Shown here: piece after piece, positions 1-46,316 of the stretch | How the letters are laid out: every line of letters begins with the position of its first letter | Numbering within the stretch: position 1 is the stretch's first letter | DNA from: a virus | Taxonomy: Duplodnaviria; Caudoviricetes | Strand: one strand, 5' to 3' | Virus record (IMG/VR): IMGVR_UViG_3300048672_000900 | Location: 1 to 53,116 of that record | Length of the DNA stretch: 53,116 nucleotides | Made by a program: the position numbers and the translations under genes | Notes under the pieces: model-generated | Databases searched by the model: none | Seen by the model: only the letters and a program-made list of their open reading frames with translations | What the model was told of the DNA's origin: nothing

Positions 1-124
1 GTCTTTGACCTCCCAACCAACGCCTGGGAGACCCCCAGGCCCGATGGCTCCCTGGAGAGCTGGTCGCACCTCTGACCGGCTCTCCCGCACTAGCACCCCG
101 TCGTGAGACGCCATGCTAGTGCAC

Positions 125-162
125 AAAAGCCCCCTCGCCAGGGGCTTTTCTTTTTTCTTTTT
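125..162 (+). terminator. Rho-independent terminator
   Basis: AAAAGCCCC-N7-GGGGCTTTT stem followed by a long T-rich tract. Confidence 0.7.
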
Positions 163-166
163 AAGC

Positions 167-204
167 GGCATAAAAGGCAGGCTCTTAGGCCTGCCCTCTA
201 TGCC
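167..204. repeat. GGCATA/GGCAGG palindromic element (family copy 1), probable bidirectional terminator
   Basis: ggcataaaaggcagg-ctcttagg-cctgccctctatgcc immediately after the tail tube stop; near-identical copies occur elsewhere in the window. Confidence 0.8.
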
Positions 205-9293: not shown

Positions 9294-9299
9294 AAAGTC

Positions 9300-9338
9300 G
9301 GCATAGTGGGCAGGCTTTAATAGCCTGCCTTTTATGCC
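9300..9338. repeat. GGCATA/GGCAGG palindromic element (copy 2), terminator
   Basis: ggcatagtgggcagg-ctttaatag-cctgccttttatgcc followed by a T tract. Confidence 0.8.
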
Positions 9339-9495
9339 TTTTTTGTTTTTAATACAACAGCGAATGGTGTGACTACTCACCTGAGTGTTAGACCCATTGT
9401 GGATTTCAAATCCATCAGGCAGCCATCCCTGATGACCCTTTGAGGTCGGCCTTTTAAGAGTAGTTTATTTTCACGAAAGTAAATGAGGATCACTC

Positions 9496-9822
9496 ATGGC
9501 TAAGGCAGATGTGCGCACGTTTGACCGGGAAGAAGAAGGCCCAATGTCGGGCCTGCGAGCGCTCAAGAAAGAACCAAAACCGCCTGAAAACAATTTGAAA
9601 GTATACACCATCAACCCTAAGCACTATAAACTTTGGGTAACTGAAGCCACGGGTAAACCCTATTGGGTGCTGTGGTCTGGAGACGATATCACGACCTCTG
9701 AGTTTAAAGAAGCTTACCAGCAAGCTCAACGCTATAGTCGTTGCCAGTTGAACGGCTACGACCCGGTGTCTCAGCTGAGTAAGGTGATTCATTTACCGCA
9801 GTCACTACACAAGGCTGCTTAA
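9496..9822 (+). CDS. Hypothetical protein
   Basis: 108 aa ORF with GAGGA RBS and ATG start. Confidence 0.7.
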   Translation: MAKADVRTFDREEEGPMSGLRALKKEPKPPENNLKVYTINPKHYKLWVTEATGKPYWVLWSGDDITTSEFKEAYQQAQRYSRCQLNGYDPVSQLSKVIHLPQSLHKAA

Positions 9823-9833
9823 AGCCATCCAGA

Positions 9834-9875
9834 GCAGCATAAAAGGCAGGCTACTAGGCCTGCCCTCTATGCCGC
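9834..9875. repeat. GGCATA/GGCAGG palindromic element (copy 3), bidirectional terminator
   Basis: gcagcataaaaggcagg-ctactagg-cctgccctctatgccgc between convergent genes. Confidence 0.8.
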
Positions 9876-9880
9876 CTATT

Positions 9881-18730: not shown

Positions 18731-19055
18731 GCTAGGCCTCAGAGCCGACACACCTGAATTCATTACAGAGATGATGGGTGAGGCTTTTCAGGCGATTCGT
18801 CATCAAGAGAAGTGTACACTACAACGTGCATTCGGTTGGATCTATCAACACATCGGTCAAGCTCCTGTTGATACCACGGAGCTGGCGTTTTATATCAGCC
18901 AGCTCATTTGGTATTTACAATCCTTCATGTCTCAGCAAGGCCACTTTGACTTAGTGCCTGCTTTTTGTGCCAACGGCAACGTCTTCTTTACGGAGTACGA
19001 TAACGTGAAAGATGATTGCATCAGCGAACGCCATTTCCTTGAGGTTATAGTTTGA
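18684..19055 (+). CDS. Hypothetical protein
   Basis: ORF filling the gap before 19084; start uncertain. Confidence 0.5.
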   Translation: MEAPSLPPQLWSTCCELGLRADTPEFITEMMGEAFQAIRHQEKCTLQRAFGWIYQHIGQAPVDTTELAFYISQLIWYLQSFMSQQGHFDLVPAFCANGNVFFTEYDNVKDDCISERHFLEVIV

Positions 19056-19083
19056 CCTTTTATTCTCACTAGGAACTGTACAC

Positions 19084-19485
19084 ATGGCTCAATACCCTGT
19101 CATCGTCAACCAAAGTTACGACTTTGTCTTTCAAGCACCTGCTATTCTCTCGATTGGCATTCAGAATGCTAAGGTGCTCTCAGAGGCGTCCTACAGCATC
19201 GCCAGTCTGATCAACCCAGACTTAGTTGCTCTACATGAACAAGTCAAACCTTACCTGACTGGTGGCGCTAATGATGACGCCACCACGCTCAACTACCTGA
19301 TCCTTCAAACCGTAGAAGGTGAAAAACGAGTGTACGCCATGGACTGGTTGGCTTCTGCTCCGGTGGTTGCTAACTACCACGATGTCAACTTCTACATCAA
19401 GAGCGTGAGCCCTGACAACATCCAGTACATCCGCGACCTGTTGGTGAATGCTGGGTTTACTCAGTTCAGTTATACGCAGGTGTAA
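19084..19485 (+). CDS. Conserved small protein (phiKZ gp49-like)
   Basis: 133 aa, AGGA RBS; APAIL...ALHEQVKPYL motif; last clear gene upstream of the DNA polymerase. Confidence 0.6.
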   Translation: MAQYPVIVNQSYDFVFQAPAILSIGIQNAKVLSEASYSIASLINPDLVALHEQVKPYLTGGANDDATTLNYLILQTVEGEKRVYAMDWLASAPVVANYHDVNFYIKSVSPDNIQYIRDLLVNAGFTQFSYTQV

Positions 19486-19490
19486 GAAGG

Positions 19491-19542
19491 CGGCATAAAA
19501 CCACAAGCAGGAGTAGGTATTACACCTACTCCTCTTATGCTG
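19491..19542 (+). terminator. CGGCATAA...TTATGCTG-closed hairpin terminator
   Basis: Inner stem aggagtaggt-attac-acctactcct with the family-type outer arms; T tract at 19569-19586. Confidence 0.6.
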
Positions 19543-19637
19543 CAATCCAAATAACCCATGCTGCACGCCTTTTCTTTTTTCTTTTTGTATTGTATGTAAG
19601 GAGTGTGAGAGTTTCTCATACTTTTCACAACCAAGTG

Positions 19638-20717
19638 TTGAGATGGGTGGTGAGGTGTTTGCTTGAAACACCTCACTAAACTTTATGCGCACTTTGACTG
19701 GCAACGCACAATCAGACCTTTCTTTTGATGTCCTCACGTCAGAGGTGTTGGTTTATCGAGCTGCGTTGGGTTTGACAGCTTGCTTATGAAAAGAGGTCAA
19801 GTGTTTGGTTTTTGCATGTGGGCTGCAAGCGGTCATATGCTTGTGGCTTTTTTGAAGCGACCTTTTATTTTTGGCCCGTGGTGTTTGGAGTCGTTTGTAC
19901 AGCAAGAGTCATGTCTTGTCTCTGTACAGATAAAACAAACGTCCAGTGCTAGCAGCTGTCGGAACTGATCGCCAATACCTTTGGATGGTCTTGAGCTAAA
20001 ATCAGTGAGAGTGCGTGTAACAGGTGGATTGAAAGAATGCCTCACCACCCATCTCAATTGTAGAGGTACCGGTTAATACACACCGCATCAAAAGCAAACC
20101 AAGAAGAGGTAAGAGTATTCATGAGCGCCTAGGCAAATGCGTGGGTGTCACTTGCAAGCGGTTGGTTCGCCTAAGAAGTTGTTTGGTCTGTGGTTGAACA
20201 TGAGTTGTGCACGTTAACAGCAAAAGAGTTAGCCAGATAACAGGTTTGAAAGAGGTATGGAAGTGCGGCAGCTGCATCCAGGGTTGGGATGCCCCTAAGC
20301 AGTTGCAAGCTTATATCCACCTTGACGGTAAGACCTTGGTGAATGTCTGGTGGTGACTTGTCTGACTCGCTCAAGCTGAAGTCGTTTTTGAAGTAGTCAC
20401 AGGGCTTGCCCTGGTCGGTCTGGTGGTAGCCGATGAAAGAGACTTACGGATAAGGCCATTGACGTTGGTAGTGGAGTCAGTTTTCAAATCCTGATGGGTT
20501 TGAAAGCGTGTGTTTCCCTGGTAGTAAATCACAAAAGACCAAGTGGCTTGGATGGCTTGTCATGCCGATCAGCTTGCAGTGGCCAAAAGAAGGGGTTGCG
20601 CTGTTTGCTTCTTTGGGCGCCTCATGGGCTCGAATAGTGCTTTTTGGTTTGTGCGGTGTGTATTTTTATTAGCAAAGGGCTGCTGGCTTTTCTTCGGAAA
20701 GGCTGGCGGCTTCTTTT
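19638..20717 (+). ncRNA. Candidate large (~1.1 kb) structured non-coding RNA with two rod-like domains
   Basis: No credible ORF; perfect 18-bp inverted repeat 19638-19655/20040-20057; second closing helix 20075-20088/20651-20664; many nested helices that pair only with G-U on the + strand. Confidence 0.7.
20674..20717 (+). terminator. Intrinsic terminator with cUUCGg tetraloop
   Basis: gggctgctggcttttc-TTCG-gaaaggctggcggctt followed by CTTTT and then ATGCCG. Confidence 0.75.
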
Positions 20718-20782
20718 ATGCCGTCCTCTTAAAAGACAAGCCTCAGTCATGGGATAGTTGCAACACTAAAGCAAAAAGACTC

Positions 20783-22927
20783 ATGACTGTTGTAGAAGAC
20801 ACCAATCCGTTTGTTCGTCCTGTCAAACAGTACAAGCGTAACTTCAGCCCTGTAAAACACATGGTGGAAGACGCTGCTCGATATTTGAGCATTATGACGG
20901 GAGATGACTATCAAAAGACTTATGCCTATGTTAAAGAAAACGTTTTAAACCCCAAGGGTAAGTTTGCTGTTAAAGATCCAGGCGTGTCCTATTTTCAACG
21001 CATGCCTAATGGGGATAGAGAGAAAAAACAAGCCCCTATTCTTGGGTTTATTAAGGAAGTCATTTCTTCCAATGAGATACTGTCGCCCAGCTGGGTCGGT
21101 TATGTTCACCCCAGCATAGAGCAGTCTATCATCTCTTTGGATACTGAAGAAAAGATACGGCTGCGCAGCGTGGCTAAGAAAGCAATGTTTGCTGCTGAGG
21201 GTCGAGACCCTTATGTCTATGCACTCAAAAAGATCGAGCAAGGTGCTCGCAAGACCAGTAACAACGCGTACTCGGGGGCTACGTGCACACCCAGTACACC
21301 TTTGTTTAATCGCAGCGCGCACACGTCTTTGACAAGTACGTGTCGCTCTACCAGTGCTTCTGGTAATGCCAATAACGAAAAACTGATCGCTGGTAATCGT
21401 CATTATCGCAATTACACGATCACTCTTAATAACATCATATCCATCATCAATCATACTGACTACGCTGAACTCCAGCAGGTGATTGACATCTACGGTATTC
21501 ACTTACCCAGTGTAGATGACATGATGGAATGTATCTTGTACAGCACTCGGTTATACTGGAGAAACTCTAAGTACGAAGCTAAGCTCAGAGATTTAGCTGA
21601 GCATATGACGCCTATACAACGCGCTGCGTTTGTGTACACGGGTGATTTATATCACATCAAGAAACACAACCAGTCTTTAATGCGAGACTTTATTGACAAG
21701 CTCTCGACTCAAGCCTGCGGTTTAACGGATGATCCGTGGCCTATTTTAAAGAAGGCTAACGACGAGTATGTAAATTTGAGCCATCAGATCTGTACAGAGA
21801 TCATGCGCGGCAACGCGAAAGATTACAACCTCATCACACATGAACAGCGTTGTATCGTTGCATCAACTCAGATCCATATTGCTAATACGGTTACAGAGTT
21901 TGGTCCGTTCATTAAAGTCTTCTTTAGAAGTGATAATGTTCCGGCCAGCGTCTCTTATTTCCCTGACAGTATCAGACGGGTTGCCGTCACCAGTGATACT
22001 GATTCGACCATCTTCACTGCCCAAGACTGGGTGATTTGGTTTATGGGCGATATTGACTTTAGCCCTAAAGGAATCTCTGTACAAGCTGCTATTACGTTTC
22101 TAGCGGCTAACACCATCATCCACGTCTTAGCCATGATGAGTGCTAACTTGAACGTGGAAGAAAAGAACATGTTCCGCATTGCCATGAAATCGGAATATCG
22201 TTTTGATGTGTTTGTACCCACTGAGATTGGTAAGACGTACTATGCCACCATTGGTTCTCAAGAAGGTAACATTAAAGCAGAGCCTGAGCGAGAGGTCAAG
22301 GGCGTGCAGCTCAAAAGCTCAAATGCACCTGAACAGCTCAACAAGCTAGCAGGTAAAATGATGAACGACATCATGGATACCGTGCTGGCAAAACAGAAGA
22401 TCAGTATCTTGAAAATACTGACTGAGATTGCTGATATAGAACGCATGGTGATGGCGTCTATCCGTCAAGGCGAGTCAACCTACCTGCGCCGAGGAGGGAT
22501 TAAGAGTCCTGAGAGCTACAGTGCGGGACCTGAAGAAAGTAACTACCAAAACCATACGCTTTGGGAAGCCATCTTCGCACCCAAGTACGGCCGCATCACA
22601 CCCCCACCTTATAACACGGCCAAGATCAGCTTAACCACGCTAGACCATAAACAACTGACTAAATGGATTGAAACGATGCCTGACCGTGAGCTGGCGCAAC
22701 GAGCAGCCGCTTACTTTGCACGCAAGGGGAAAACTGAGTTCACCACGTTTCATGCGCCCATTGAAGTACTTCGCAGTATTGGTGTGCCTGCAGAAATCGA
22801 AATGATCATTAACTACCGCAAGATCGTAGGGGAACTCATGAACTCGTTTAGGCTGGTGTTGGGTTCTTTGGGATTTGATATGTTCTGGAGCGGAGATAAT
22901 CCAGCCCTTATCTCAGATACGTACTGA
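20783..22927 (+). CDS. Family B DNA polymerase, polymerase-domain subunit (phiKZ gp50-like)
   Basis: K..NNAYSGA (motif B-like), SDTDSTIF (motif C), EVKGVQLKSS; the GTG start at 20543 runs through the terminator, so ATG 20783 was chosen. Confidence 0.88.
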   Translation: MTVVEDTNPFVRPVKQYKRNFSPVKHMVEDAARYLSIMTGDDYQKTYAYVKENVLNPKGKFAVKDPGVSYFQRMPNGDREKKQAPILGFIKEVISSNEILSPSWVGYVHPSIEQSIISLDTEEKIRLRSVAKKAMFAAEGRDPYVYALKKIEQGARKTSNNAYSGATCTPSTPLFNRSAHTSLTSTCRSTSASGNANNEKLIAGNRHYRNYTITLNNIISIINHTDYAELQQVIDIYGIHLPSVDDMMECILYSTRLYWRNSKYEAKLRDLAEHMTPIQRAAFVYTGDLYHIKKHNQSLMRDFIDKLSTQACGLTDDPWPILKKANDEYVNLSHQICTEIMRGNAKDYNLITHEQRCIVASTQIHIANTVTEFGPFIKVFFRSDNVPASVSYFPDSIRRVAVTSDTDSTIFTAQDWVIWFMGDIDFSPKGISVQAAITFLAANTIIHVLAMMSANLNVEEKNMFRIAMKSEYRFDVFVPTEIGKTYYATIGSQEGNIKAEPEREVKGVQLKSSNAPEQLNKLAGKMMNDIMDTVLAKQKISILKILTEIADIERMVMASIRQGESTYLRRGGIKSPESYSAGPEESNYQNHTLWEAIFAPKYGRITPPPYNTAKISLTTLDHKQLTKWIETMPDRELAQRAAAYFARKGKTEFTTFHAPIEVLRSIGVPAEIEMIINYRKIVGELMNSFRLVLGSLGFDMFWSGDNPALISDTY

Positions 22928-22936
22928 GGTTTAGAG

Positions 22937-22977
22937 CGGCATAATTGGCAGGCCTAGTAGCCTGCCTTTTTATGCCG
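22937..22977. repeat. GGCATA/GGCAGG palindromic element (copy 4), bidirectional terminator
   Basis: cggcataattggcagg-cctagtag-cctgcctttttatgccg; near reverse complement of copy 3; between convergent genes. Confidence 0.8.
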
Positions 22978-24095: not shown

Positions 24096-24529
24096 AGCGC
24101 CTTTTATAAATCTGATAAACTAAAAAGAATTTGACTACTCAAGTCATTGTTTTTTCATAAACTAATCAATGCTATGGAGATTGAAAACCAATGTCCTCTT
24201 TGAGCGCTATCAACGCTTGAAGAAACCAACTTCTTATGCCCGACTATTGTTGGGGCATATAAAAACAAGATTGCAAAATTGAGTAGTACCTTATTATCTT
24301 CTTGGACTACGACTGCTTTGCTAGTTCTTAAGTTTATTCCAGTGTCGACACTTATTGGAGTAGACGAAGAGAACAAAAGTTGTTGTGGTTCGTTAGCTCT
24401 CAAAGCGTGTCAGGTTAAAAAGTGGAAAAGTATACTTGAGCCACTTACTCTGATCACAGATGCACCTTTGAAAGCATACCACCATCCCTAGCATCTGTTG
24501 ACGTCAACAACTGTTTCAAGGAACCAACC

Positions 24530-26272
24530 ATGCAAACCATCCACCAAATGATCGGCCTCAGCGGCGCCATGCTGGGCGGCGGCACCTCGCTGCCCGCTCT
24601 GATTGAAAAGATCAAGGCCGCCGGCCTGACGAACGATTTTACGACGTTCGTCCCGCTGGACAACAACAGCAACTTCCCCGGCATTCACTTCAGTGGCATT
24701 GCCGTGGCGAACTTCAACGCCAGCCGCGACACCGCAGCGTACTACGTCTACCTGCTCGAAGACAGCAACCCGACGCCGCTGGAGCCCATCCGCACCTCGA
24801 TCGGCAATGAGCAAGTCGAGATCCCCCGCACCGCCGAGCAAGCCATCGACAGCCGTGCGATGGAACGCGCCAACCAGGCCGTGATCGACGCGCTGCCCAA
24901 GGGCGTCACCTGCATCGCCAGCGGCATGTCGGTCATCGGCACCTCCTTCAACGCCGGCGACCAGACGCAGCTGCGCTACTACGTCAACCTGGCGATGGTG
25001 CAGAACGGCATCGCCATGGTGCGCCTGACCGGCATCGAGCCCACCTTCAGCCTGACGCAAGTCAGGGACGCCAGCAAGGGTCTGGCCTGCAAGATCGAGA
25101 CGGTGAACAACCCGGTCATTCTTGCGGACGGCATCGTCATCGATGCCGGCCAGAAGGTGGTGGTTCGCACTCGCACGCCCAACGCCAAGGAAGGTACCAG
25201 CGCCAACAGCCTCGCGCTGAACTCGGCCGTCACCGACCAAGAACTGGTCACGGTCTACATCAAGACCGAACTGATCGAGGTCCAGCCGGTGCCGGAAATG
25301 GGCCCGATGGGCATGCCGGTGATGAGCAAGAAGTGCTGGGCGCCGCGCATCCACATCACCCACGTGGAATCGCGCACCCAGGCGGGCCTGAGCCTGATCT
25401 GGCTGGCGATCTACGGCGCCACAGAAGTCGCTCGTGACTACAACTGGGCGGTGCCGTTCCTGCCGGTGCGCGACGTGGGCAACACCATCAACCTGCGCGA
25501 GATCGCAGCGCTGAACCTGGTGGCCAAGTACTACGACGGCGGCCAGCTGTTCGACACGCGCTCGCCCAGCTTCACCCTGGCGGAGCTGAAGAACTATCTG
25601 GACGCGGTGATCCAGAACCAACCGCAGATCTGCATCGACGTCATCGGCGGCGTCACCGAGCACATGTGGCTGAGTGCGTTCACGTCGGCGGCCAACGGCA
25701 ACCCCGAAGGTGCTGACCTGACGCAGAAGTCGCTGGCGCAGTTCCTGGGCCATCGCCTGGTGACCAAGGAAAGCGGCCTGGACATGCCGACGGTGCTCGT
25801 CACCGGTAGCGTGGACACGGGCTCGGCCGAAGTGGCCTACTGCGGCGAGTACACCACCAACAGCAACCAGAAGCGCCCGATCACCGAGATCGACTTCTGC
25901 GCTGTGGCGGCGCTCACGAACGGTGATGCTGAAACGCTGCTGGCCTACCAGCAGACGACGATCGCTGCTTCTCACCTGCACGGCACTCAGCGCGCTCACC
26001 GGCGCTTCCGCCTGCATCAGCACCTGCTGCCCACGGCGGTGATCCGGCGCATCCTGCGCACGGTCATCATCCCTGGCGGCACCATCCAGGCCATGCGTGC
26101 GGCCATGGAGCAGATCTGCACCCTGCATCCGGTCGAGATCACCAATCCGCTGGTGAACTCGGTCCCGCAAGTGCAGATGTCGGCTGCGCTGATGCAGCAT
26201 GGTCTGAACCTGTCGACTCTGGGCAACCAGAACCGCGCAGGTGCAGCGTCCTACACCGGCGCCGTCCTGTAA
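24530..26272 (+). CDS. chmA: Chimallin, major phage nucleus shell protein (phiKZ gp54 / 201phi2-1 gp105-like)
   Basis: 580 aa, strongest G/C-ending codon bias in the window (high expression), AAGGA RBS; diagnostic position between the gp52-like gene and nvRNAP beta'; G.Y......RPI.EID-type motif. Confidence 0.75.
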   Translation: MQTIHQMIGLSGAMLGGGTSLPALIEKIKAAGLTNDFTTFVPLDNNSNFPGIHFSGIAVANFNASRDTAAYYVYLLEDSNPTPLEPIRTSIGNEQVEIPRTAEQAIDSRAMERANQAVIDALPKGVTCIASGMSVIGTSFNAGDQTQLRYYVNLAMVQNGIAMVRLTGIEPTFSLTQVRDASKGLACKIETVNNPVILADGIVIDAGQKVVVRTRTPNAKEGTSANSLALNSAVTDQELVTVYIKTELIEVQPVPEMGPMGMPVMSKKCWAPRIHITHVESRTQAGLSLIWLAIYGATEVARDYNWAVPFLPVRDVGNTINLREIAALNLVAKYYDGGQLFDTRSPSFTLAELKNYLDAVIQNQPQICIDVIGGVTEHMWLSAFTSAANGNPEGADLTQKSLAQFLGHRLVTKESGLDMPTVLVTGSVDTGSAEVAYCGEYTTNSNQKRPITEIDFCAVAALTNGDAETLLAYQQTTIAASHLHGTQRAHRRFRLHQHLLPTAVIRRILRTVIIPGGTIQAMRAAMEQICTLHPVEITNPLVNSVPQVQMSAALMQHGLNLSTLGNQNRAGAASYTGAVL

Positions 26273-26286
26273 GTAAGCAGCAAGGC

Positions 26287-26383
26287 ACTGCGTGATTCTT
26301 ACCCAGAGTCACGCAGTAGCCGTCAACTAAAGAAACTCATCTGCACTAGCTCACAAGGCTGGTGTGGGTGAGTTTTCTTTTTA
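26287..26383 (+). terminator. Tandem hairpins/terminator after chimallin
   Basis: actgcgtgattct/agagtcacgcagt, then gaaactcatctgcactagc/gctggtgtgggtgagtttt followed by a T tract. Confidence 0.7.
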
Positions 26384-26497
26384 TGCTGACCTCTTTCTTT
26401 TGTGAATACAAATATTCACAGACGTACATCATTATTCTGAGTATCCCCTCCTACCAAGATACTCTTTAGCTGTTAAAGACAAGGAGAAAAGAAGTCT

Positions 26498-28018
26498 ATG
26501 GGTGTCTATATGAAGATTCAGTCGCCAGCTCAAGCGCTGGCTGCACTGACCCACAAGCCTGTGATTCTGAACGACATGCCTGTCGTCACAGAACAAGATC
26601 GTGACATGATCAAGAAAGCCACCACGATGGTATTCAGTGGGGCCGATACGTTTTCAAACGTGCCGAGCTGTCAGTGCGGTAGCACGCGTGGCGGGCATTT
26701 GAAAGGGCATATCTGCAATCATTGTCATACGCCGGTGACTGACTCGTTTACAGATCGGTTGGATTACTTGGTGCTGATCAGGTCGCCTAAGGGTGTAGCG
26801 CCTTTGATTCTGCCAGGCGTGCTCTATATGCTGATGGACGCAACAACAGAAGACAGTTTCTGTTATGTGCGTTGGCTGATTGACTTGGGTTATAACCCCA
26901 CTAAAGCCAGTCACAACTATATTGTCAACGACTTGACCAACGCGTTGGAGAATCTTGGTATTGAACGCGGTTATAACCAGTTTGTCAACAACTTTGATGT
27001 GGTGATGGACATGGTGAGTCGCTACATTTACCAAAAGCGCGCAGGGGGTCGAAAAGAAATCAATCCTTCAGACGGTACGACTGCGCGTTTGATGGACATG
27101 ATGGAGCTGCTCAAGTATGAGCGCCAAAACATCTTCAGCGATTATTTGCCTTTGCCTAACCGCATTGCGTTGCTGATGGAACAAACCAGTAGCGGCACTT
27201 ACGTCGGCACATGTGCTTTTATGCTCAGTGACGTCATCAAGAGTTTCCAGGGTATTGATACGCCAATGCGTGAGATGCCTCAGAAAAAACGTGAGATGCG
27301 TACCGCCAATGCACTCATTACACTGGCCAACTACTACTTCGAAGAAGTGCGTAAGAACCACGGCAAAAAGCCAGGCACGCTTCGTCGGCATTTATACGGC
27401 ATGCGCTCCGACTACAGCATGCGCTGCGTCATTAGCTCTATTACTGAGCCACACAACTACGACGAGATTGAGCTGCCTTGGCGAGCAGCTGTCGCTACCT
27501 ACACCATCCATATCCTTAACAAGCTCCTCAAACGTGGCTACACGATCTATGACGGCTTAAAGGAAATCTACAAAGCCAGCTATGAGGTCACGCCTCTAGT
27601 CAGTGAAATTTTTGACGAGCTGCTTGCGCAATCGCCAAACGGCTTTTTGTATGTTTACTTCAATCGAAACCCAAGCCTCAAACGCGGCTCTTTGCAGCGC
27701 TTGAAAGTGCCCATTATTAAACGCGACATCAACGACGTCACCATTGGTTTATCTGGTCTGAACGTCACGTCGTTTAACGCAGACTTTGACGGCGACCAGA
27801 TGAACCTGTACTCGCCCACTGACAACTACATTGCTAACTCTCTAGCACGCCTAGACCCGCATCTGAACTTACCTAACGATGACAAGGTCTTGCAGTTTTC
27901 AGGCATGGCTAATTTGCCCAGACCTGCTTTGTGTGCAGCCTCAAGCTGGTACAGCGACCAAGAGGGCAGCGAAGCATCAATAGACAATAGTCAATTTGTA
28001 GCAACCTACTTACAATAA
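26498..28018 (+). CDS. Non-virion RNA polymerase beta' N-terminal/catalytic subunit (phiKZ gp55-like)
   Basis: Zn finger CQC..CNHC, K.G.LRRH, NRNPSL, catalytic FNADFDGDQMN. Confidence 0.92.
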   Translation: MGVYMKIQSPAQALAALTHKPVILNDMPVVTEQDRDMIKKATTMVFSGADTFSNVPSCQCGSTRGGHLKGHICNHCHTPVTDSFTDRLDYLVLIRSPKGVAPLILPGVLYMLMDATTEDSFCYVRWLIDLGYNPTKASHNYIVNDLTNALENLGIERGYNQFVNNFDVVMDMVSRYIYQKRAGGRKEINPSDGTTARLMDMMELLKYERQNIFSDYLPLPNRIALLMEQTSSGTYVGTCAFMLSDVIKSFQGIDTPMREMPQKKREMRTANALITLANYYFEEVRKNHGKKPGTLRRHLYGMRSDYSMRCVISSITEPHNYDEIELPWRAAVATYTIHILNKLLKRGYTIYDGLKEIYKASYEVTPLVSEIFDELLAQSPNGFLYVYFNRNPSLKRGSLQRLKVPIIKRDINDVTIGLSGLNVTSFNADFDGDQMNLYSPTDNYIANSLARLDPHLNLPNDDKVLQFSGMANLPRPALCAASSWYSDQEGSEASIDNSQFVATYLQ

Positions 28019-28664: not shown

Positions 28665-28739
28665 TCTTTTAAGCAATGGCAGGAGTGCTGATACGGCACT
28701 CCTGCTTTACTTTTCTTTTTATGCCCTGGAGATTGTTTC

Positions 28740-45949: not shown

Positions 45950-46029
45950 TTGCATGAAAAAGTAAAGACATATAACTATAGTGAGGTGAAGAATGTCTCT
46001 TCACTATAGTTAATGAAAGGAATTGACAA

Positions 46030-46266
46030 ATGGCTCTGATCTATGTTTCCGAAGGTCTCGAAACTGAGACCGCAATTGCCGCCTCTTCGGCCGAGGGCCT
46101 GGCCAAATTGAAGGCAGCCACGCCCGACGAGGGCAGGTGGGTCGACGACAAGTTCGATCTGCCGGCCGGCCGCCGGCTGATCCAGTCATTTACCTGGCGG
46201 GAGTGGGACTCCGCAGGTGAGGAAAAACTCCCTGACCGGTACGTGGTCGTACCTGTCATCGGCTGA
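46030..46266 (+). CDS. Small hypothetical protein
   Basis: 78 aa, AAGGA RBS, GC-rich codons, own terminator. Confidence 0.7.
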   Translation: MALIYVSEGLETETAIAASSAEGLAKLKAATPDEGRWVDDKFDLPAGRRLIQSFTWREWDSAGEEKLPDRYVVVPVIG

Positions 46267-46271
46267 TCACA

Positions 46272-46316
46272 CTGGCTAGTTGCATTGTGATTGCAACTAG
46301 CCAGGCCTTTCTTTTT
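46272..46316. terminator. Terminator between convergent genes
   Basis: Perfect 13-bp stem ctggctagttgca/tgcaactagccag followed by a T tract. Confidence 0.75.

What the first reader, a model, noticed from the sequence alone, without database searches (positions are those of the whole stretch)
19638..20717. Candidate ~1.1 kb structured non-coding RNA upstream of the DNA polymerase
Seen: a ~1.3 kb gap in an otherwise gene-dense genome, with no credible ORF and a G/T-rich + strand. It has a terminator and T tract upstream and a cUUCGg terminator at 20674-20717. It splits into two adjacent domains, each closed by a long-range helix (19638-19655/20040-20057 and 20075-20106/20640-20664). About ten nested helices can be traced by eye, and most imperfect positions are G-U pairs on the + strand (A-C mismatches on the - strand), which points to selection on RNA rather than DNA structure. 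A TATG, the phiKZ late-promoter core, lies at 19593-19596. Inference: an independent large ncRNA of a nucleus-forming phage that matches no class I recognise (tmRNA, RNase P, group I/II intron). Possible roles are a scaffold, a decoy for RNA-targeting immunity, or a partner of the polymerase, ChmC or nucleus machinery encoded next door.
Basis: partly seen in the sequence, partly recalled or inferred. Interest (0 to 1): 0.92.

Follow-up and report, generated by a model that had tools for sequence, protein, structure and literature searches.

The report
Large structured RNA before phage polymerase
An uncultured freshwater nucleus-forming jumbo phage carries about 1.15 kb of non-coding DNA just upstream of its DNA polymerase gene; it looks like a two-domain, tightly folded RNA that selection has kept foldable, matches no known RNA family, and has no known role.

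Summary
The gap 19486-20782 (1297 nt) lies between an SH3DP gene and the divergent family-B DNA polymerase of a chimallivirus. It has no credible ORF. It contains two domains closed by long-range helices and ends in a terminator that fits the phiKZ terminator motif.

The + strand folds far better than the - strand (-423 vs -295 kcal/mol). Domain 1 has z=-8.0 and domain 2 z=-4.5. Non-Watson-Crick positions in the long stems are 19 G.U against 2 A.C.

In other metagenomes, 17 natural substitutions leave the + strand fold almost untouched (ddG +1.1 against +16.2±6.0 for random same-type changes, P=0.003). They look random on the - strand (P=0.53). Domain 1 varies less than third codon positions (P=0.006).

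Rfam gives nothing, and no homolog exists in any collection searched.

Caveats:
- Other intergenic regions of this phage fold equally well by z-score.
- No RNA data exist.
- Relatives share only a fast-evolving structured spacer and the TTATGCCG motif.
- Function is inferred only.

Verdict: probably a real, selected, orphan large structured RNA. Whether it is transcribed independently, and how it works, remains open.

The parts
19084..19485 (+). Upstream gene: SH3-fold protein associated with phage DNA polymerases (phiKZ gp049-like)
   Evidence: PF20287 E=3.3e-14 and phrog_3235. The annotation note on the phiPA3 gp046 homolog names phiKZ gp049.
19491..19542 (.). T1: bidirectional terminator-like cassette. 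Hairpin 19509-19533, TTATGCCG on the - strand at 19491-19498, and TTATGCTG on the + strand at 19535-19542. The + strand motif contains TATG 19536-19539, candidate start site 1.
   Evidence: In runs X2 and X6, 19541 T>C turns the + strand motif into the consensus TTATGCCG.
19569..19586 (+). T tract CTTTTCTTTTTTCTTTTT. It is an exact copy of the tract after a terminator hairpin at 145-162, and it marks the left edge of the block that one X2 contig shares with the window.
   Evidence: tables 7 and 8.
19593..19596 (+).
   Evidence: The TATG core of phiKZ late promoters, with G as +1, is from PMC4666361 (passages).
19599..19625 (+). Leader hairpin: 12 bp with a 3-nt loop
   Evidence: MFE of 19539-20720.
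19638..20057 (+). Domain 1 (420 nt). Closing helix 19639-19660/20035-20056 (22 bp), then 19683-19701/20002-20020, then a multi-branch core with hairpins. Two of the hairpins carry GUCAUA and GUCAUG hexaloops (19832-19837, 19908-19913).
   Evidence: z=-8.0; 74% of MFE pairs have p>0.9. Only 2 substitutions in 420 nt in the X2 haplotype.
20058..20074 (+). Unpaired linker holding an AGAGGT (Shine-Dalgarno-like) word
20075..20664 (+). Domain 2 (590 nt). A quasi-continuous imperfect duplex of about 100 bp (20075-20201 with 20510-20664) leads to a branched tip.
   Evidence: z=-4.5. The X2 haplotype of 20058-20723, which spans this domain, folds at -261.4 against -249.4 for the reference.
20674..20724 (+). 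T2: terminator hairpin 20677-20712 (UUCG loop) with tail CTTTTATGCCGT. The tail fits the phiKZ terminator motif YTTATKYYGT. TATG 20717-20720 is a candidate start site of the polymerase mRNA.
   Evidence: Motif from PMC10914365 (passage). 20688 T>C turns U-G into C-G in the stem.
20783..22927 (+). Downstream gene: divergent family B DNA polymerase (phiKZ gp050-like)
   Evidence: PF20286 E=2.2e-234 and phrog_2927.

Best explanation
The stretch from 19539 or 19596 to about 20718 encodes a non-coding + strand RNA of about 1.12-1.18 kb. It consists of a short leader, two independently closed domains (420 and 590 nt) and a phiKZ-type intrinsic terminator.

What is shown:
- The region does not code for protein.
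- Its + strand fold is unusually stable and well defined.
- Its stems tolerate G.U but not A.C.
- Natural variants in other metagenomes keep, or even improve, that fold.
- Domain 1 is under purifying selection.

What is inferred:
- It is transcribed in the phage nucleus by the phage's non-virion RNA polymerase, from a TATG-type start just after the SH3DP terminator, and released at T2.
- The polymerase mRNA then starts afresh at the TATG inside the T2 tail.

Most likely mode of action (inference only; about 0.3 of my belief in the whole statement): the RNA acts in trans through its shape. The ~100-bp imperfect duplex of domain 2 and the paralogous hairpins of domain 1 would serve as a protein-binding platform or decoy. 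It would not act by base-pairing to a target or by catalysis, because relatives keep no sequence core.

It sits in a spacer before the polymerase promoter that is structured but evolves fast across this clade. This lineage has enlarged that spacer three- to five-fold.
For: Non-coding:
- ORF lists and alternative codes give no credible frame.
- 0 of 10 small ORFs hit PHROGs or Pfam.
- The 62-aa + ORF has one hit in 1.84 billion proteins, and that hit is a tandem-repeat artefact.
- The X2 haplotype carries 1-nt insertions at 20384, 20547 and 20772 that would frameshift the domain 2 ORFs and the upstream extension of the polymerase frame.

Fold:
- + strand -423.4 vs - strand -295.0 kcal/mol.
- z=-8.0 and -4.5 on the + strand, against -4.9 and -3.0 on the - strand.
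- Share of MFE pairs with p>0.9: 74% and 60% on the + strand, against 35% and 25% on the - strand.

RNA rather than DNA:
- In wobble-blind DNA alignments of the stem arms, transition-type mismatches are 19 G.U against 2 A.C. P=1.1e-4 against a 1:1 null and P=0.012 against a composition null.
- GC skew is +0.21, against -0.03 at four-fold sites of + strand genes.

Natural variation (runs from 4 studies laid; one X2 contig at depth 28 spans 19576-21498):
- Of the 17 substitutions listed in 19638-20717, 11 keep their pair, 2 break it and 4 are unpaired.
- ddG on the fixed MFE is +1.1, against +16.2±6.0 for random same-type changes (P=0.003).
- The same test on the - strand gives 14.7 against 14.3±4.6 (P=0.53).
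- 0 of 60 random substitution sets refold as well as the X2 haplotype.
- In the X2 fold, four changes turn A.C or U.C mismatches into Watson-Crick pairs.
- Domain 1 has 2 substitutions in 420 nt, against 8 in 239 third codon positions of the polymerase (P=0.006).

Boundaries:
- T2 fits the published phiKZ terminator motif.
- T-run+TATGC recurs upstream of genes in this phage.
- TTATGCYG occurs 19 times against 3.5±1.95 expected.
Against: - No transcript evidence of any kind is available.
- All six other intergenic regions tested fold about as strongly by z-score on at least one strand. Stable folding is a habit of this genome.
- No homolog was found in INPHARED phages, PLSDB plasmids or the polymerase neighbourhoods of 26 IMG/VR and metagenome loci. 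There is therefore no cross-species covariation.
- The only motif shared by 17 of 17 relatives' gaps is TTATGCCG.
- Domain 2 with T2 varies at a rate not distinguishable from third codon positions (14/660 vs 8/239, P=0.21). The whole region gives P=0.053.
- The variant tests rest on contigs, on an MFE predicted from the reference, and on only 17 changes. At least 3 further X6 differences in 20385-20721 were not displayed and so were not used.
- The TTATGCCG motif also occurs in both orientations between convergent genes. It may therefore be a terminator tail only, not a start site. In that case the RNA would arise by read-through of T1.
- The mechanism has no direct support.
Confidence: 0.5

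Rival explanations
1. It is a cis-acting leader of the polymerase gene. The structured RNA and T2 form an attenuator or insulator that sets how much transcription reaches or restarts at the polymerase promoter. The terminated RNA is a by-product, like the 5'UTR-derived short RNAs of phiKZ.
For: - It lies directly upstream of the polymerase on the same strand.
- T2 ends 4 nt before a TATG, and the polymerase start codon lies 63 nt further on.
- In 17 of 17 relatives a TTATGCCG-like motif (at most 1 mismatch) stands in the gap, in most of them 40-90 nt before the polymerase, preceded by a folded spacer.
- phiKZ has 17 candidate 5'UTR-derived ncRNAs made by premature termination (PMC10914365, passages).
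Against: - It is 6-10 times longer than those RNAs.
- An attenuator does not need 378 predicted base pairs in two closed domains.
- Domain 1, the part farthest from the polymerase, is the most conserved.
- A duplex search between the RNA and the polymerase 5' UTR was uninformative.
Confidence: 0.2
2. It has no function of its own. It is selfish or accreted DNA (MITE-like inverted-repeat elements, or duplicated terminator hairpins) lodged in a recombination-prone spacer, and the RNA fold is a side effect of inverted repeats.
For: - A perfect 18-bp inverted repeat flanks domain 1.
- The whole unit is flanked by inverted terminator-tail arms, 19483-19500/20714-20731.
- The T tract at its left edge is an exact copy of one at 145-162, and one X2 contig joins there to other sequence.
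- The stretch 19452-19605 is hypervariable, with 12-13 differences in about 154 nt.
- The element is an orphan.
- Internal word repeats are present.
Against: - Neutral decay of inverted repeats should give G.U and A.C about equally; the observed ratio is 19:2.
- Variants preserve the + strand fold only.
- Domain 1 is under constraint.
- No second copy exists in the 53 kb window. The four IMG/VR hits to the 18-mer are chance matches; the two inspected (L029, L030) lie inside coding frames.
- I saw no target-site duplication on reading the flanks.
Confidence: 0.15
3. It is a replication-origin region. A G-rich transcript from the TATG start forms an R-loop or a processed primer for the adjacent polymerase, as with ColE1 RNA II or the T4 origin transcripts (comparison recalled, not looked up).
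For: - It lies next to the polymerase and its accessory gene.
- It is non-coding and evolves fast between relatives.
- GC skew is +0.21 over the whole transcribed stretch.
Against: - No iterons or AT-rich unwinding element are present; the only tandem repeat is (TTTTCTT)x2.4.
- The G excess is not shared by relatives' gaps; G and C are about equal in 7 of the 11 relatives' gaps.
- Selection acts on intramolecular pairing over the whole length.
Confidence: 0.07
4. It hides one or more small protein genes, or a gene read in another genetic code.
For: - Several 46-74 aa ORFs exist.
- AGAGGT words occur 5 times (0.24 expected from the rest of the window). One lies 5 nt before an in-frame GTG (19801) of the 62-aa ORF (spacing read).
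Against: - 0 of 10 ORFs hit PHROGs or Pfam.
- There is no real homolog of the 62-aa ORF among 1.84 billion representatives.
- No long frame appears under three stop reassignments.
- Natural 1-nt insertions break the domain 2 ORFs.
- Substitutions show no period-3 pattern, while all 8 in the polymerase are third positions.
Confidence: 0.03

Closest known systems
5'UTR-derived non-coding RNAs of phage phiKZ, made by premature termination (Putzeys et al. 2024, PMC10914365; Gerovac et al. 2021, PMC8545117; passages read)
   Same: They occur in the same virus family. They share the architecture: promoter, structured RNA, hairpin terminator, then the gene on the same strand. The same terminator motif is present (hairpin + YTTATKYYGT).
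   Different: Those RNAs are about 90-200 nt, and some were confirmed by Northern blot. This one is about 1,150 nt with two closed multi-helix domains, and its expression is untested. None of the passages I read mentions one before PHIKZ050. The list in Table S7 could not be opened.
Large 'ornate' bacterial and phage-associated RNAs such as GOLLD and ROOL (bioRxiv 10.1101/2024.12.08.627333: search listing and start of abstract only; that they are phage-associated is recalled)
   Same: They are several hundred to about a thousand nucleotides long, heavily structured, non-coding and of unknown function.
   Different: No Rfam model for any such family scores here, even at E<=10. Those families are defined by covariation across many genomes, whereas this RNA is an orphan known from one phage population. 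About half of domain 2 is a long rod rather than an ornate multi-junction fold.
Structured spacers between SH3DP and polymerase in related chimalliviruses (Burkholderia phage FLC9 and uncultured relatives L002, L010, L020-L022, L027)
   Same: They occupy the same place and strand. They are non-coding and well folded: FLC9 + z=-4.25, L010 + z=-7.7, L020 + z=-5.1. They end in a hairpin plus TTTTATGCCG shortly before the polymerase.
   Different: They are 325-654 nt, against 1297 nt here. There is no alignable sequence and no shared word apart from the terminator/promoter motif. Most lack a terminator right after SH3DP, so there the spacer would be a 3' UTR. phiPA3 has only 184 nt.
Translational operator of T4/RB69 DNA polymerase mRNA (recalled, not looked up)
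   Same: It is an RNA element upstream of a phage family-B polymerase gene that the polymerase itself could bind.
   Different: That operator is a single short hairpin overlapping the ribosome-binding site. Here a terminator separates the structure from the polymerase mRNA.

Membership tests
Any Rfam 15 family (including group I and II introns, RNase P, tmRNA, 6S, GOLLD, ROOL, HEARO, OLE and self-cleaving ribozymes) | Covariance-model score at or above the family's gathering threshold | tested here: not met
   0 matches over the whole window at gathering scores. With permissive filters on 19400-20900 there were 4 matches at E 0.77-5.7, all 34-84 bits below their gathering score. 0 matches in 15 relatives' loci.
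Self-splicing intron (group I or II) | Interrupts a gene whose exons join into one reading frame | tested here: not met
   Both flanking genes are complete against their Pfam profiles: SH3DP 4-122 of 122, polymerase 3-705 of 705. They are separate genes in relatives.
phiKZ-type intrinsic terminator (PMC10914365) | G+C-rich hairpin followed directly by YTTATKYYGT | tested here: met
   T2 has a 16-bp stem at 20677-20712 followed by C-TTTTATGCCGT. T1 (19509-19533 + CTTATGCTGC) fits except for the last letter. The motif text was read.
phiKZ-type intrinsic terminator (PMC10914365) | Transcript 3' ends map to the site | not testable with these tools
   No RNA run was available to lay on the stretch.
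phiKZ late promoter (PMC4666361) | TATG with the G as +1 | tested here: met
   TATG stands at 19536-19539, 19593-19596 and 20717-20720. The paper itself says TATG is necessary but not sufficient, so this is weak.
phiKZ late promoter (PMC4666361) | Initiation by the non-virion RNA polymerase at that G | not testable with these tools
   This needs 5' end mapping or in vitro transcription.
phiKZ 5'UTR-derived ncRNA | Short RNA (about 80-200 nt) ended by a conditional terminator ahead of a coding sequence | tested here: not met
   The layout fits, but the length is about 1,120-1,180 nt. Sizes are from passages.
MITE or other inverted-repeat mobile element | Terminal inverted repeats | tested here: met
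   18-nt perfect arms around domain 1, and 13+12-nt arms around domain 2.
MITE or other inverted-repeat mobile element | Multiple copies in the genome or in other genomes; target-site duplication | tested here: not met
   No second copy exists in the window or in 30 loci. The 4 IMG/VR hits to the 18-mer share only 19 nt; the two inspected (L029, L030) lie inside ORFs. I saw no direct repeat at the flanks. Only 20% of the genome is in hand.
Replication origin | Iterons and/or an AT-rich unwinding element | tested here: not met
   The direct-repeat families are short and weak. The only tandem repeat is (TTTTCTT)x2.4.
Protein-coding gene | Open frame with homologs or a codon-position substitution pattern | tested here: not met
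   Frameshifting natural insertions occur.

The most novel reading that the evidence does not exclude
This is the first example of a giant (about 1.15 kb) trans-acting structural RNA made by a nucleus-forming phage. It would be a discrete nvRNAP transcript whose long duplex rod and repeated hairpins assemble or sequester proteins. Candidates are the replication machinery encoded on both sides of it, the RNA-handling proteins of the phage nucleus, or a host RNA-sensing defence. The fast-evolving structured spacers before the polymerase in the FLC9/RP12-like clade would then be smaller members of the same functional class.
Probability: 0.2. Interest if true: 0.85.

Novelty: new variant of a known kind. 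Interest (0 to 1): 0.6.

Why it matters
Nucleus-forming jumbo phages separate transcription from translation, and they are open mainly to RNA-targeting immunity. So far only a few small non-coding RNAs (about 100-200 nt) have been described for phiKZ. The 2026 review I searched mentions nothing larger.

A kilobase-sized RNA kept foldable by selection, sitting between the polymerase and its accessory gene, would point to an RNA component of the phage nucleus or replication apparatus, or to an RNA decoy. It would also add a new large structured RNA at a time when such RNAs are being found to build unexpected assemblies.

The finding also gives practical landmarks for annotating uncultured chimalliviruses. 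The hairpin+TTATGCCG cassette marks transcription-unit borders, and the SH3DP-polymerase spacer is a place to look for structured RNAs.

The limits are plain. The phage is uncultured, the RNA is an orphan and expression is unproven.

Tried and rejected
- **RNA evidence.** No RNA holder was listed among 20 public runs holding the stretch, so expression could not be examined.
- **Homolog searches with no result.**
  - INPHARED phages, blastn distant.
  - PLSDB plasmids.
  - blastn and nhmmer against 14 IMG/VR and 12 metagenome polymerase loci.
  - tblastx against relatives' gaps: 2 hits at E>0.5.
  - The FLC9 spacer is likewise unique.
- **18-mer scan.** An exact 18-mer of the domain 1 closing helix found 4 IMG/VR contigs. 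They share only 19 nt with the region. The two I inspected (L029, L030) have the match inside coding frames, and L028 and L031 gave the same short matches, so I rejected all four as chance.
- **Shared words.** Among 17 relatives' gaps the only shared word is the TTATGCCG motif.
- **Covariation in relatives.** Two relatives (L021/L022, 70% identical) gave 18 of 78 pairs changed on both sides, against 0-3 in slid controls. The structure was derived from the same two sequences and the RNA is not alignable to the window's, so this is only a hint.
- **Loops and motifs.**
  - GUCAUR hexaloop hairpins: two in domain 1, none in relatives' gaps.
  - TGCAAGCGGT occurs exactly twice, both times inside the RNA, but at 1 mismatch the count is near chance.
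  - UAUGG and CCUAAG words of the tetraloop receptor are present at 20256-20260 and 20294-20299. By eye they are not opposed in the fold, and no hairpin loop in the MFE is GNRA. Rejected.
- **Duplex with the polymerase 5' UTR.** -64.7 against -57.3±3.8 for shuffles; the interaction is sprawling and uninformative.
- **Coding checks.** Alternative genetic codes and small-ORF family searches gave nothing.
- **Steps that failed or were not run.**
  - I built no covariance model. With one sequence and no alignable relatives it would only find itself.
Full report
**Context.** The window is one IMG/VR virus record of 53,116 bases, judged about 20% complete. It belongs to a nucleus-forming jumbo phage (chimallivirus). 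The evidence:
- a nuclear-shell protein at 24530-26272 (phrog_4795);
- a non-virion RNA polymerase subunit at 26498-28018 (phrog_2987, PF00623);
- the divergent family-B DNA polymerase at 20783-22927 (PF20286, E=2.2e-234);
- just upstream, at 19084-19485, the small SH3-fold protein that Pfam describes as associated with phage DNA polymerases (PF20287).

By polymerase sequence, the nearest cultured phages are Burkholderia phage FLC9 (44%) and Ralstonia phages RP12 and RP31 (43%). phiPA3 and its kin are at 37%. The finding lies in the 1297 nt between the SH3DP gene and the polymerase gene.

**The observation.**
- No ORF in the gap exceeds 74 aa.
- The arms 19638-19655 and 20040-20057 are an 18-nt perfect inverted repeat. 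The arms 20075-20087/20652-20664 and 20095-20106/20640-20651 close the second domain. Both closures appear in the minimum-energy fold.
- A 16-bp hairpin with a UUCG loop sits at 20677-20712 with a T-rich tail. A hairpin sits at 19509-19533, a T tract at 19569-19586 and a TATG at 19593-19596.
- The + strand is G- and T-rich: G+T 0.58 and GC skew +0.21. Four-fold degenerate sites of ten + strand genes have GC skew -0.03.

**Folding against chance.**
- As RNA, 19638-20717 folds at -423.4 kcal/mol on the + strand and -295.0 on the - strand.
- Domain 1 (420 nt): -174.3 against -124.5±6.2 for 100 dinucleotide shuffles, z=-8.0. Its complement gives z=-4.9.
- Domain 2 (590 nt): z=-4.5 against -3.0 for its complement.
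- The + strand fold is also better defined. 74% and 60% of MFE pairs have probability above 0.9, against 35% and 25% on the - strand. Mean positional entropy is about half.

An important control tempers this. All six other intergenic regions of the window also give strongly negative z-scores on at least one strand, between -2.8 and -8.8. For example, 26273-26497 gives -7.6 on the + strand and 9294-9880 gives -5.9 and -6.8. Stable intergenic folding is a habit of this phage. This region stands out by its size (2.2 times the next largest gap) and by the evidence below.

**RNA, not DNA, and not protein.** I aligned the stem arms as DNA inverted repeats with a scoring that gives no credit to wobble pairs.
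- Transition-type mismatches were 14 G.U against 2 A.C in the domain 2 rod, and 5 against 0 in the domain 1 stem.
- The 19:2 ratio has P=1.1e-4 against a 1:1 null and P=0.012 against a null weighted by base composition.
- Neutral decay of a DNA palindrome would give both kinds about equally. A cruciform, or a - strand RNA, would suffer from what are C.A mismatches on that strand.

- No long frame appears under three stop reassignments.
- 0 of 10 small ORFs match PHROGs or Pfam at E<0.1.
- The 62-aa + strand ORF in domain 1 has a single hit among 1.84 billion representatives. That hit is a 453-aa tandem-repeat sequence, clearly not a relative.

**Natural variation.** Twenty public DNA runs hold the stretch or part of it. 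I laid contigs of four runs, from four studies labelled freshwater or freshwater sediment, on 19000-21500.
- X5 is identical over its six pieces.
- X2 has one contig at depth 28 that spans 19576-21498, with 24 substitutions and three 1-nt insertions.
- X6 and X10 tile parts of the region at low depth.
- No contig joins across the region, so there is no sign of a strain without it.
- In X2, all 8 substitutions in the polymerase part fall on third codon positions.

Rates in the X2 haplotype:
- The RNA region 19638-20717 has 16 substitutions (1.5%), against 8 in 239 third positions (3.3%). One-sided Fisher P=0.053.
- Domain 1 has only 2 in 420 (P=0.006).
- Domain 2 with T2 has 14 in 660 (P=0.21). 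It evolves at close to the third-position rate.

The substitutions are placed so as to spare the fold.
- Of the 17 listed substitutions (16 from X2, 1 only in X6), 11 keep their predicted pair through G-U/A-U/G-C exchanges, 2 break it and 4 are unpaired.
- On the fixed MFE structure they cost +1.1 kcal/mol. 3000 random sets of the same substitution types cost +16.2±6.0 (P=0.003).
- The same test on the - strand fold gives 14.7 against 14.3±4.6 (P=0.53), with 6 broken pairs.
- Refolded, the X2 haplotype of 20058-20723 is more stable than the reference (-261.4 against -249.4). 0 of 60 random sets reach it; their mean is -245.0±5.1.
- In the X2 fold, four changes (20124, 20377, 20458, 20517) turn A.C or U.C oppositions into Watson-Crick pairs.
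- The insertions at 20384, 20547 and 20772 would frameshift every ORF that covers them.

Limits of this evidence:
- It comes from contigs, not reads.
- The structure is predicted from the reference.
- 26 further differences in the laid stretch were not displayed. At least 3 of them are X6 differences inside domain 2 and so were not counted.

**Boundaries and transcription signals.** The word TTATGCYG occurs 19 times in the window, against 3.5±1.95 expected. It almost always follows a G+C-rich hairpin. It often forms mirror pairs (CGGCATAA - hairpin - TTATGCCG) between genes.

This is the motif that ONT-cappable-seq found at 61 phiKZ intrinsic terminators: a hairpin followed by YTTATKYYGT (PMC10914365, passage read). 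T2 (20677-20712 + CTTTTATGCCGT) fits it exactly. T1 (19509-19533 + CTTATGCTGC) fits it except for the last letter, and in X2 and X6 its core is the consensus TTATGCCG.

The motif also contains TATG, the core of phiKZ late promoters, whose G is the start site (PMC4666361, passages). In this window, T-run+TATGC also stands before genes without a preceding strong hairpin, for example at 28720, 26382 and 24235.

I therefore read the cassettes as terminator-plus-restart signals, which gives:
- a polymerase mRNA starting at G20720, 63 nt before its start codon.

This is inference. The motif also occurs pointing into convergent genes, so it may be only a terminator tail. The RNA could then arise by read-through of T1.

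The left edge is a variable joint.
- The stretch 19452-19605 differs at 12-13 of about 154 positions in two X2 contigs.
- The long X2 contig runs, left of 19569, into sequence like window 113-144. That sequence is a terminator hairpin that precedes an exact copy of the 18-nt T tract.

**Relatives.** The polymerase found 14 IMG/VR and 12 metagenome loci at 37-49% identity, and none closer.
- None has nucleotide similarity to the RNA region.
- The SH3DP-polymerase gap is 184 nt in phiPA3 but 325-654 nt in eight relatives that have no long ORF in it. It is 536 nt in FLC9.
- These gaps also fold well. L010 + z=-7.7; L002 -5.0 (+) and -5.4 (-); L020 + -5.1; L027 - -6.5; FLC9 + -4.25 against - -2.95. 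In some relatives the strand preference is not for the + strand.
- The gaps are mutually unalignable apart from two close pairs.
- The only word shared by 17 of 17 gaps is TTATGCCG (at most 1 mismatch), in most of them 40-90 nt before the polymerase.
- For the one informative pair (L021/L022, 70% identical), the consensus fold has 18 of 78 pairs changed on both sides, against 0-3 in slid controls. The structure comes from the same two sequences, so I count this as a hint only.
- Rfam finds nothing in 15 relatives' loci.

So this clade keeps a structured, fast-evolving spacer in front of the polymerase promoter. The window's phage has a much larger version with its own upstream terminator.

**What it is.** Best reading (confidence 0.5): a selected, non-coding, + strand RNA of about 1.15 kb, made as a terminated unit. 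Its architecture:
- a 100-nt leader with a 12-bp hairpin (19599-19625);
- domain 1, a 22-bp closing helix, further stems and a multi-branch core; two of its hairpins show GUCAUA and GUCAUG loops;
- an unpaired 17-nt linker;
- domain 2, whose outer half is an imperfect duplex of about 100 bp with many G.U pairs and whose tip is branched;
- T2.

Relatives keep no sequence core, and the constraint visible in variants is on pairing. I therefore think the RNA works through shape, as a protein-binding platform or decoy, rather than by catalysis or antisense pairing. That step is inference, with perhaps 0.3 of the weight.

Rival readings:
- a cis-acting leader or attenuator of the polymerase gene (0.2);
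- accreted selfish or terminator-derived DNA with no function of its own (0.15);
- an origin-associated primer or R-loop transcript (0.07);
- hidden coding (0.03).

**Known or new.** Rfam 15 has no match at gathering scores. Only four junk matches appear at E 0.77-5.7 with permissive filters. It is not an intron, because both neighbours are complete genes. It shares the layout and signals of the phiKZ 5'UTR-derived small RNAs but is 6-10 times longer.

Full-text searches found no description of a kilobase-scale structured RNA in nucleus-forming phages.
- Terms searched: jumbo phage / non-coding RNA / nucleus-forming; phiKZ / noncoding RNA / intergenic / DNA polymerase / structured; Chimalliviridae / ncRNA and related terms; GOLLD / ROOL / phage.
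- The 2026 review 'The biology of jumbo phages' mentions only the phiKZ small RNAs.
- Supplementary tables, notably Table S7 of PMC10914365, were closed and might list a short RNA before the phiKZ polymerase.

I file it as a new variant of a known kind: terminator-bounded non-coding transcripts of phiKZ-like phages. There is a 0.2 chance that it represents something more, a giant trans-acting structural RNA of the phage nucleus.

**Score.** Interest 0.6. The structural and population evidence is better than a lone fold prediction, and the object is unusual for this virus family. Against that, expression is unproven, the RNA is an orphan in an uncultured phage, strong intergenic folding is common in this genome, and no mechanism is supported by data.

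Noticed in passing
Whole window: e.g. 166-173(-), 9835-9842(-), 19491-19498(-)/19535-19542(+), 22937-22944(-)/22970-22977(+), 42885(-)/42953(+), 50040(-)/50073(+), 52422(-): TTATGCYG occurs 19 times (3.5±1.95 expected), nearly always right after a G+C-rich hairpin (often GGCAGGCC-loop-GGCCTGCC). It often forms mirror pairs CGGCATAA-hairpin-TTATGCCG. It equals the published phiKZ terminator motif and contains the late-promoter TATG, so it is a handy marker of transcription-unit borders in uncultured chimalliviruses. Whether it terminates, restarts or does both is open.
   Followed up: partly
window 9294-9880: This is a second long gap (587 nt), bounded by hairpin+TATGCC cassettes at 9333 and 9835-9871. 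It folds strongly on both strands (z -5.9 and -6.8). Its only ORFs are a mirror pair of 100 and 108 aa with no PHROG hit. It may be another non-coding structured unit or an orphan small gene.
   Followed up: partly
window 26273-26497 and 24096-24529: The 225-nt leader before the nvRNAP subunit gene folds at z=-7.6 on the + strand, against -3.5 on the - strand. It has a T-run+TATGCTG at 26381-26388. The 434-nt gap before the chimallin gene has a TTATGCCC at 24233-24240. Long structured 5' leaders seem common for core genes here.
   Followed up: no
window 145-162 and 19569-19586; X2 contig: The 18-nt T tract CTTTTCTTTTTTCTTTTT occurs twice, exactly. In run X2 a 3.4-kb contig continues left of 19569 into sequence like window 113-144 instead of the SH3DP end. 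Two short contigs follow the window's order with 8% divergence. This could be a recombination joint or an alternative arrangement between strains. It cannot be resolved from contigs.
   Followed up: partly
window 19452-19605: The SH3DP stop, T1 and leader stretch is hypervariable in the population: 12-13 differences in about 154 nt in X2, and 10 in 192 nt in X6. The next 400 nt (domain 1) have none in X2.
   Followed up: partly
window 46030-46266: The 366-nt 'gap' 45950-46315 seems to hold a G+C-rich ORF of about 78 aa, read by eye and not checked further. It is flanked by hairpins, and its composition differs from the rest of the phage.
   Followed up: no
L021:3545-3990 and L022:3505-3990: The spacers before the polymerase of two uncultured relatives are 70% identical. 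They have two near-invariant blocks: ACTACTTTTTTTACAG..CTATAGTGTGCAGAAGATGCTGGC at the 5' end and GGTTTTATGCCGCCA at the 3' end. RNAalifold pairs these blocks with each other, so the whole spacer may be closed by a helix that includes the polymerase promoter/terminator tail. This recalls the arms 19483-19500/20714-20731 in the window.
   Followed up: partly
window 19638-20717: The Shine-Dalgarno-like word AGAGGT occurs 5 times (0.24 expected from the rest of the window), once in the unpaired linker 20058-20074. TGCAAGCGGT occurs exactly twice (19824, 20153), once in each domain.
   Followed up: partly
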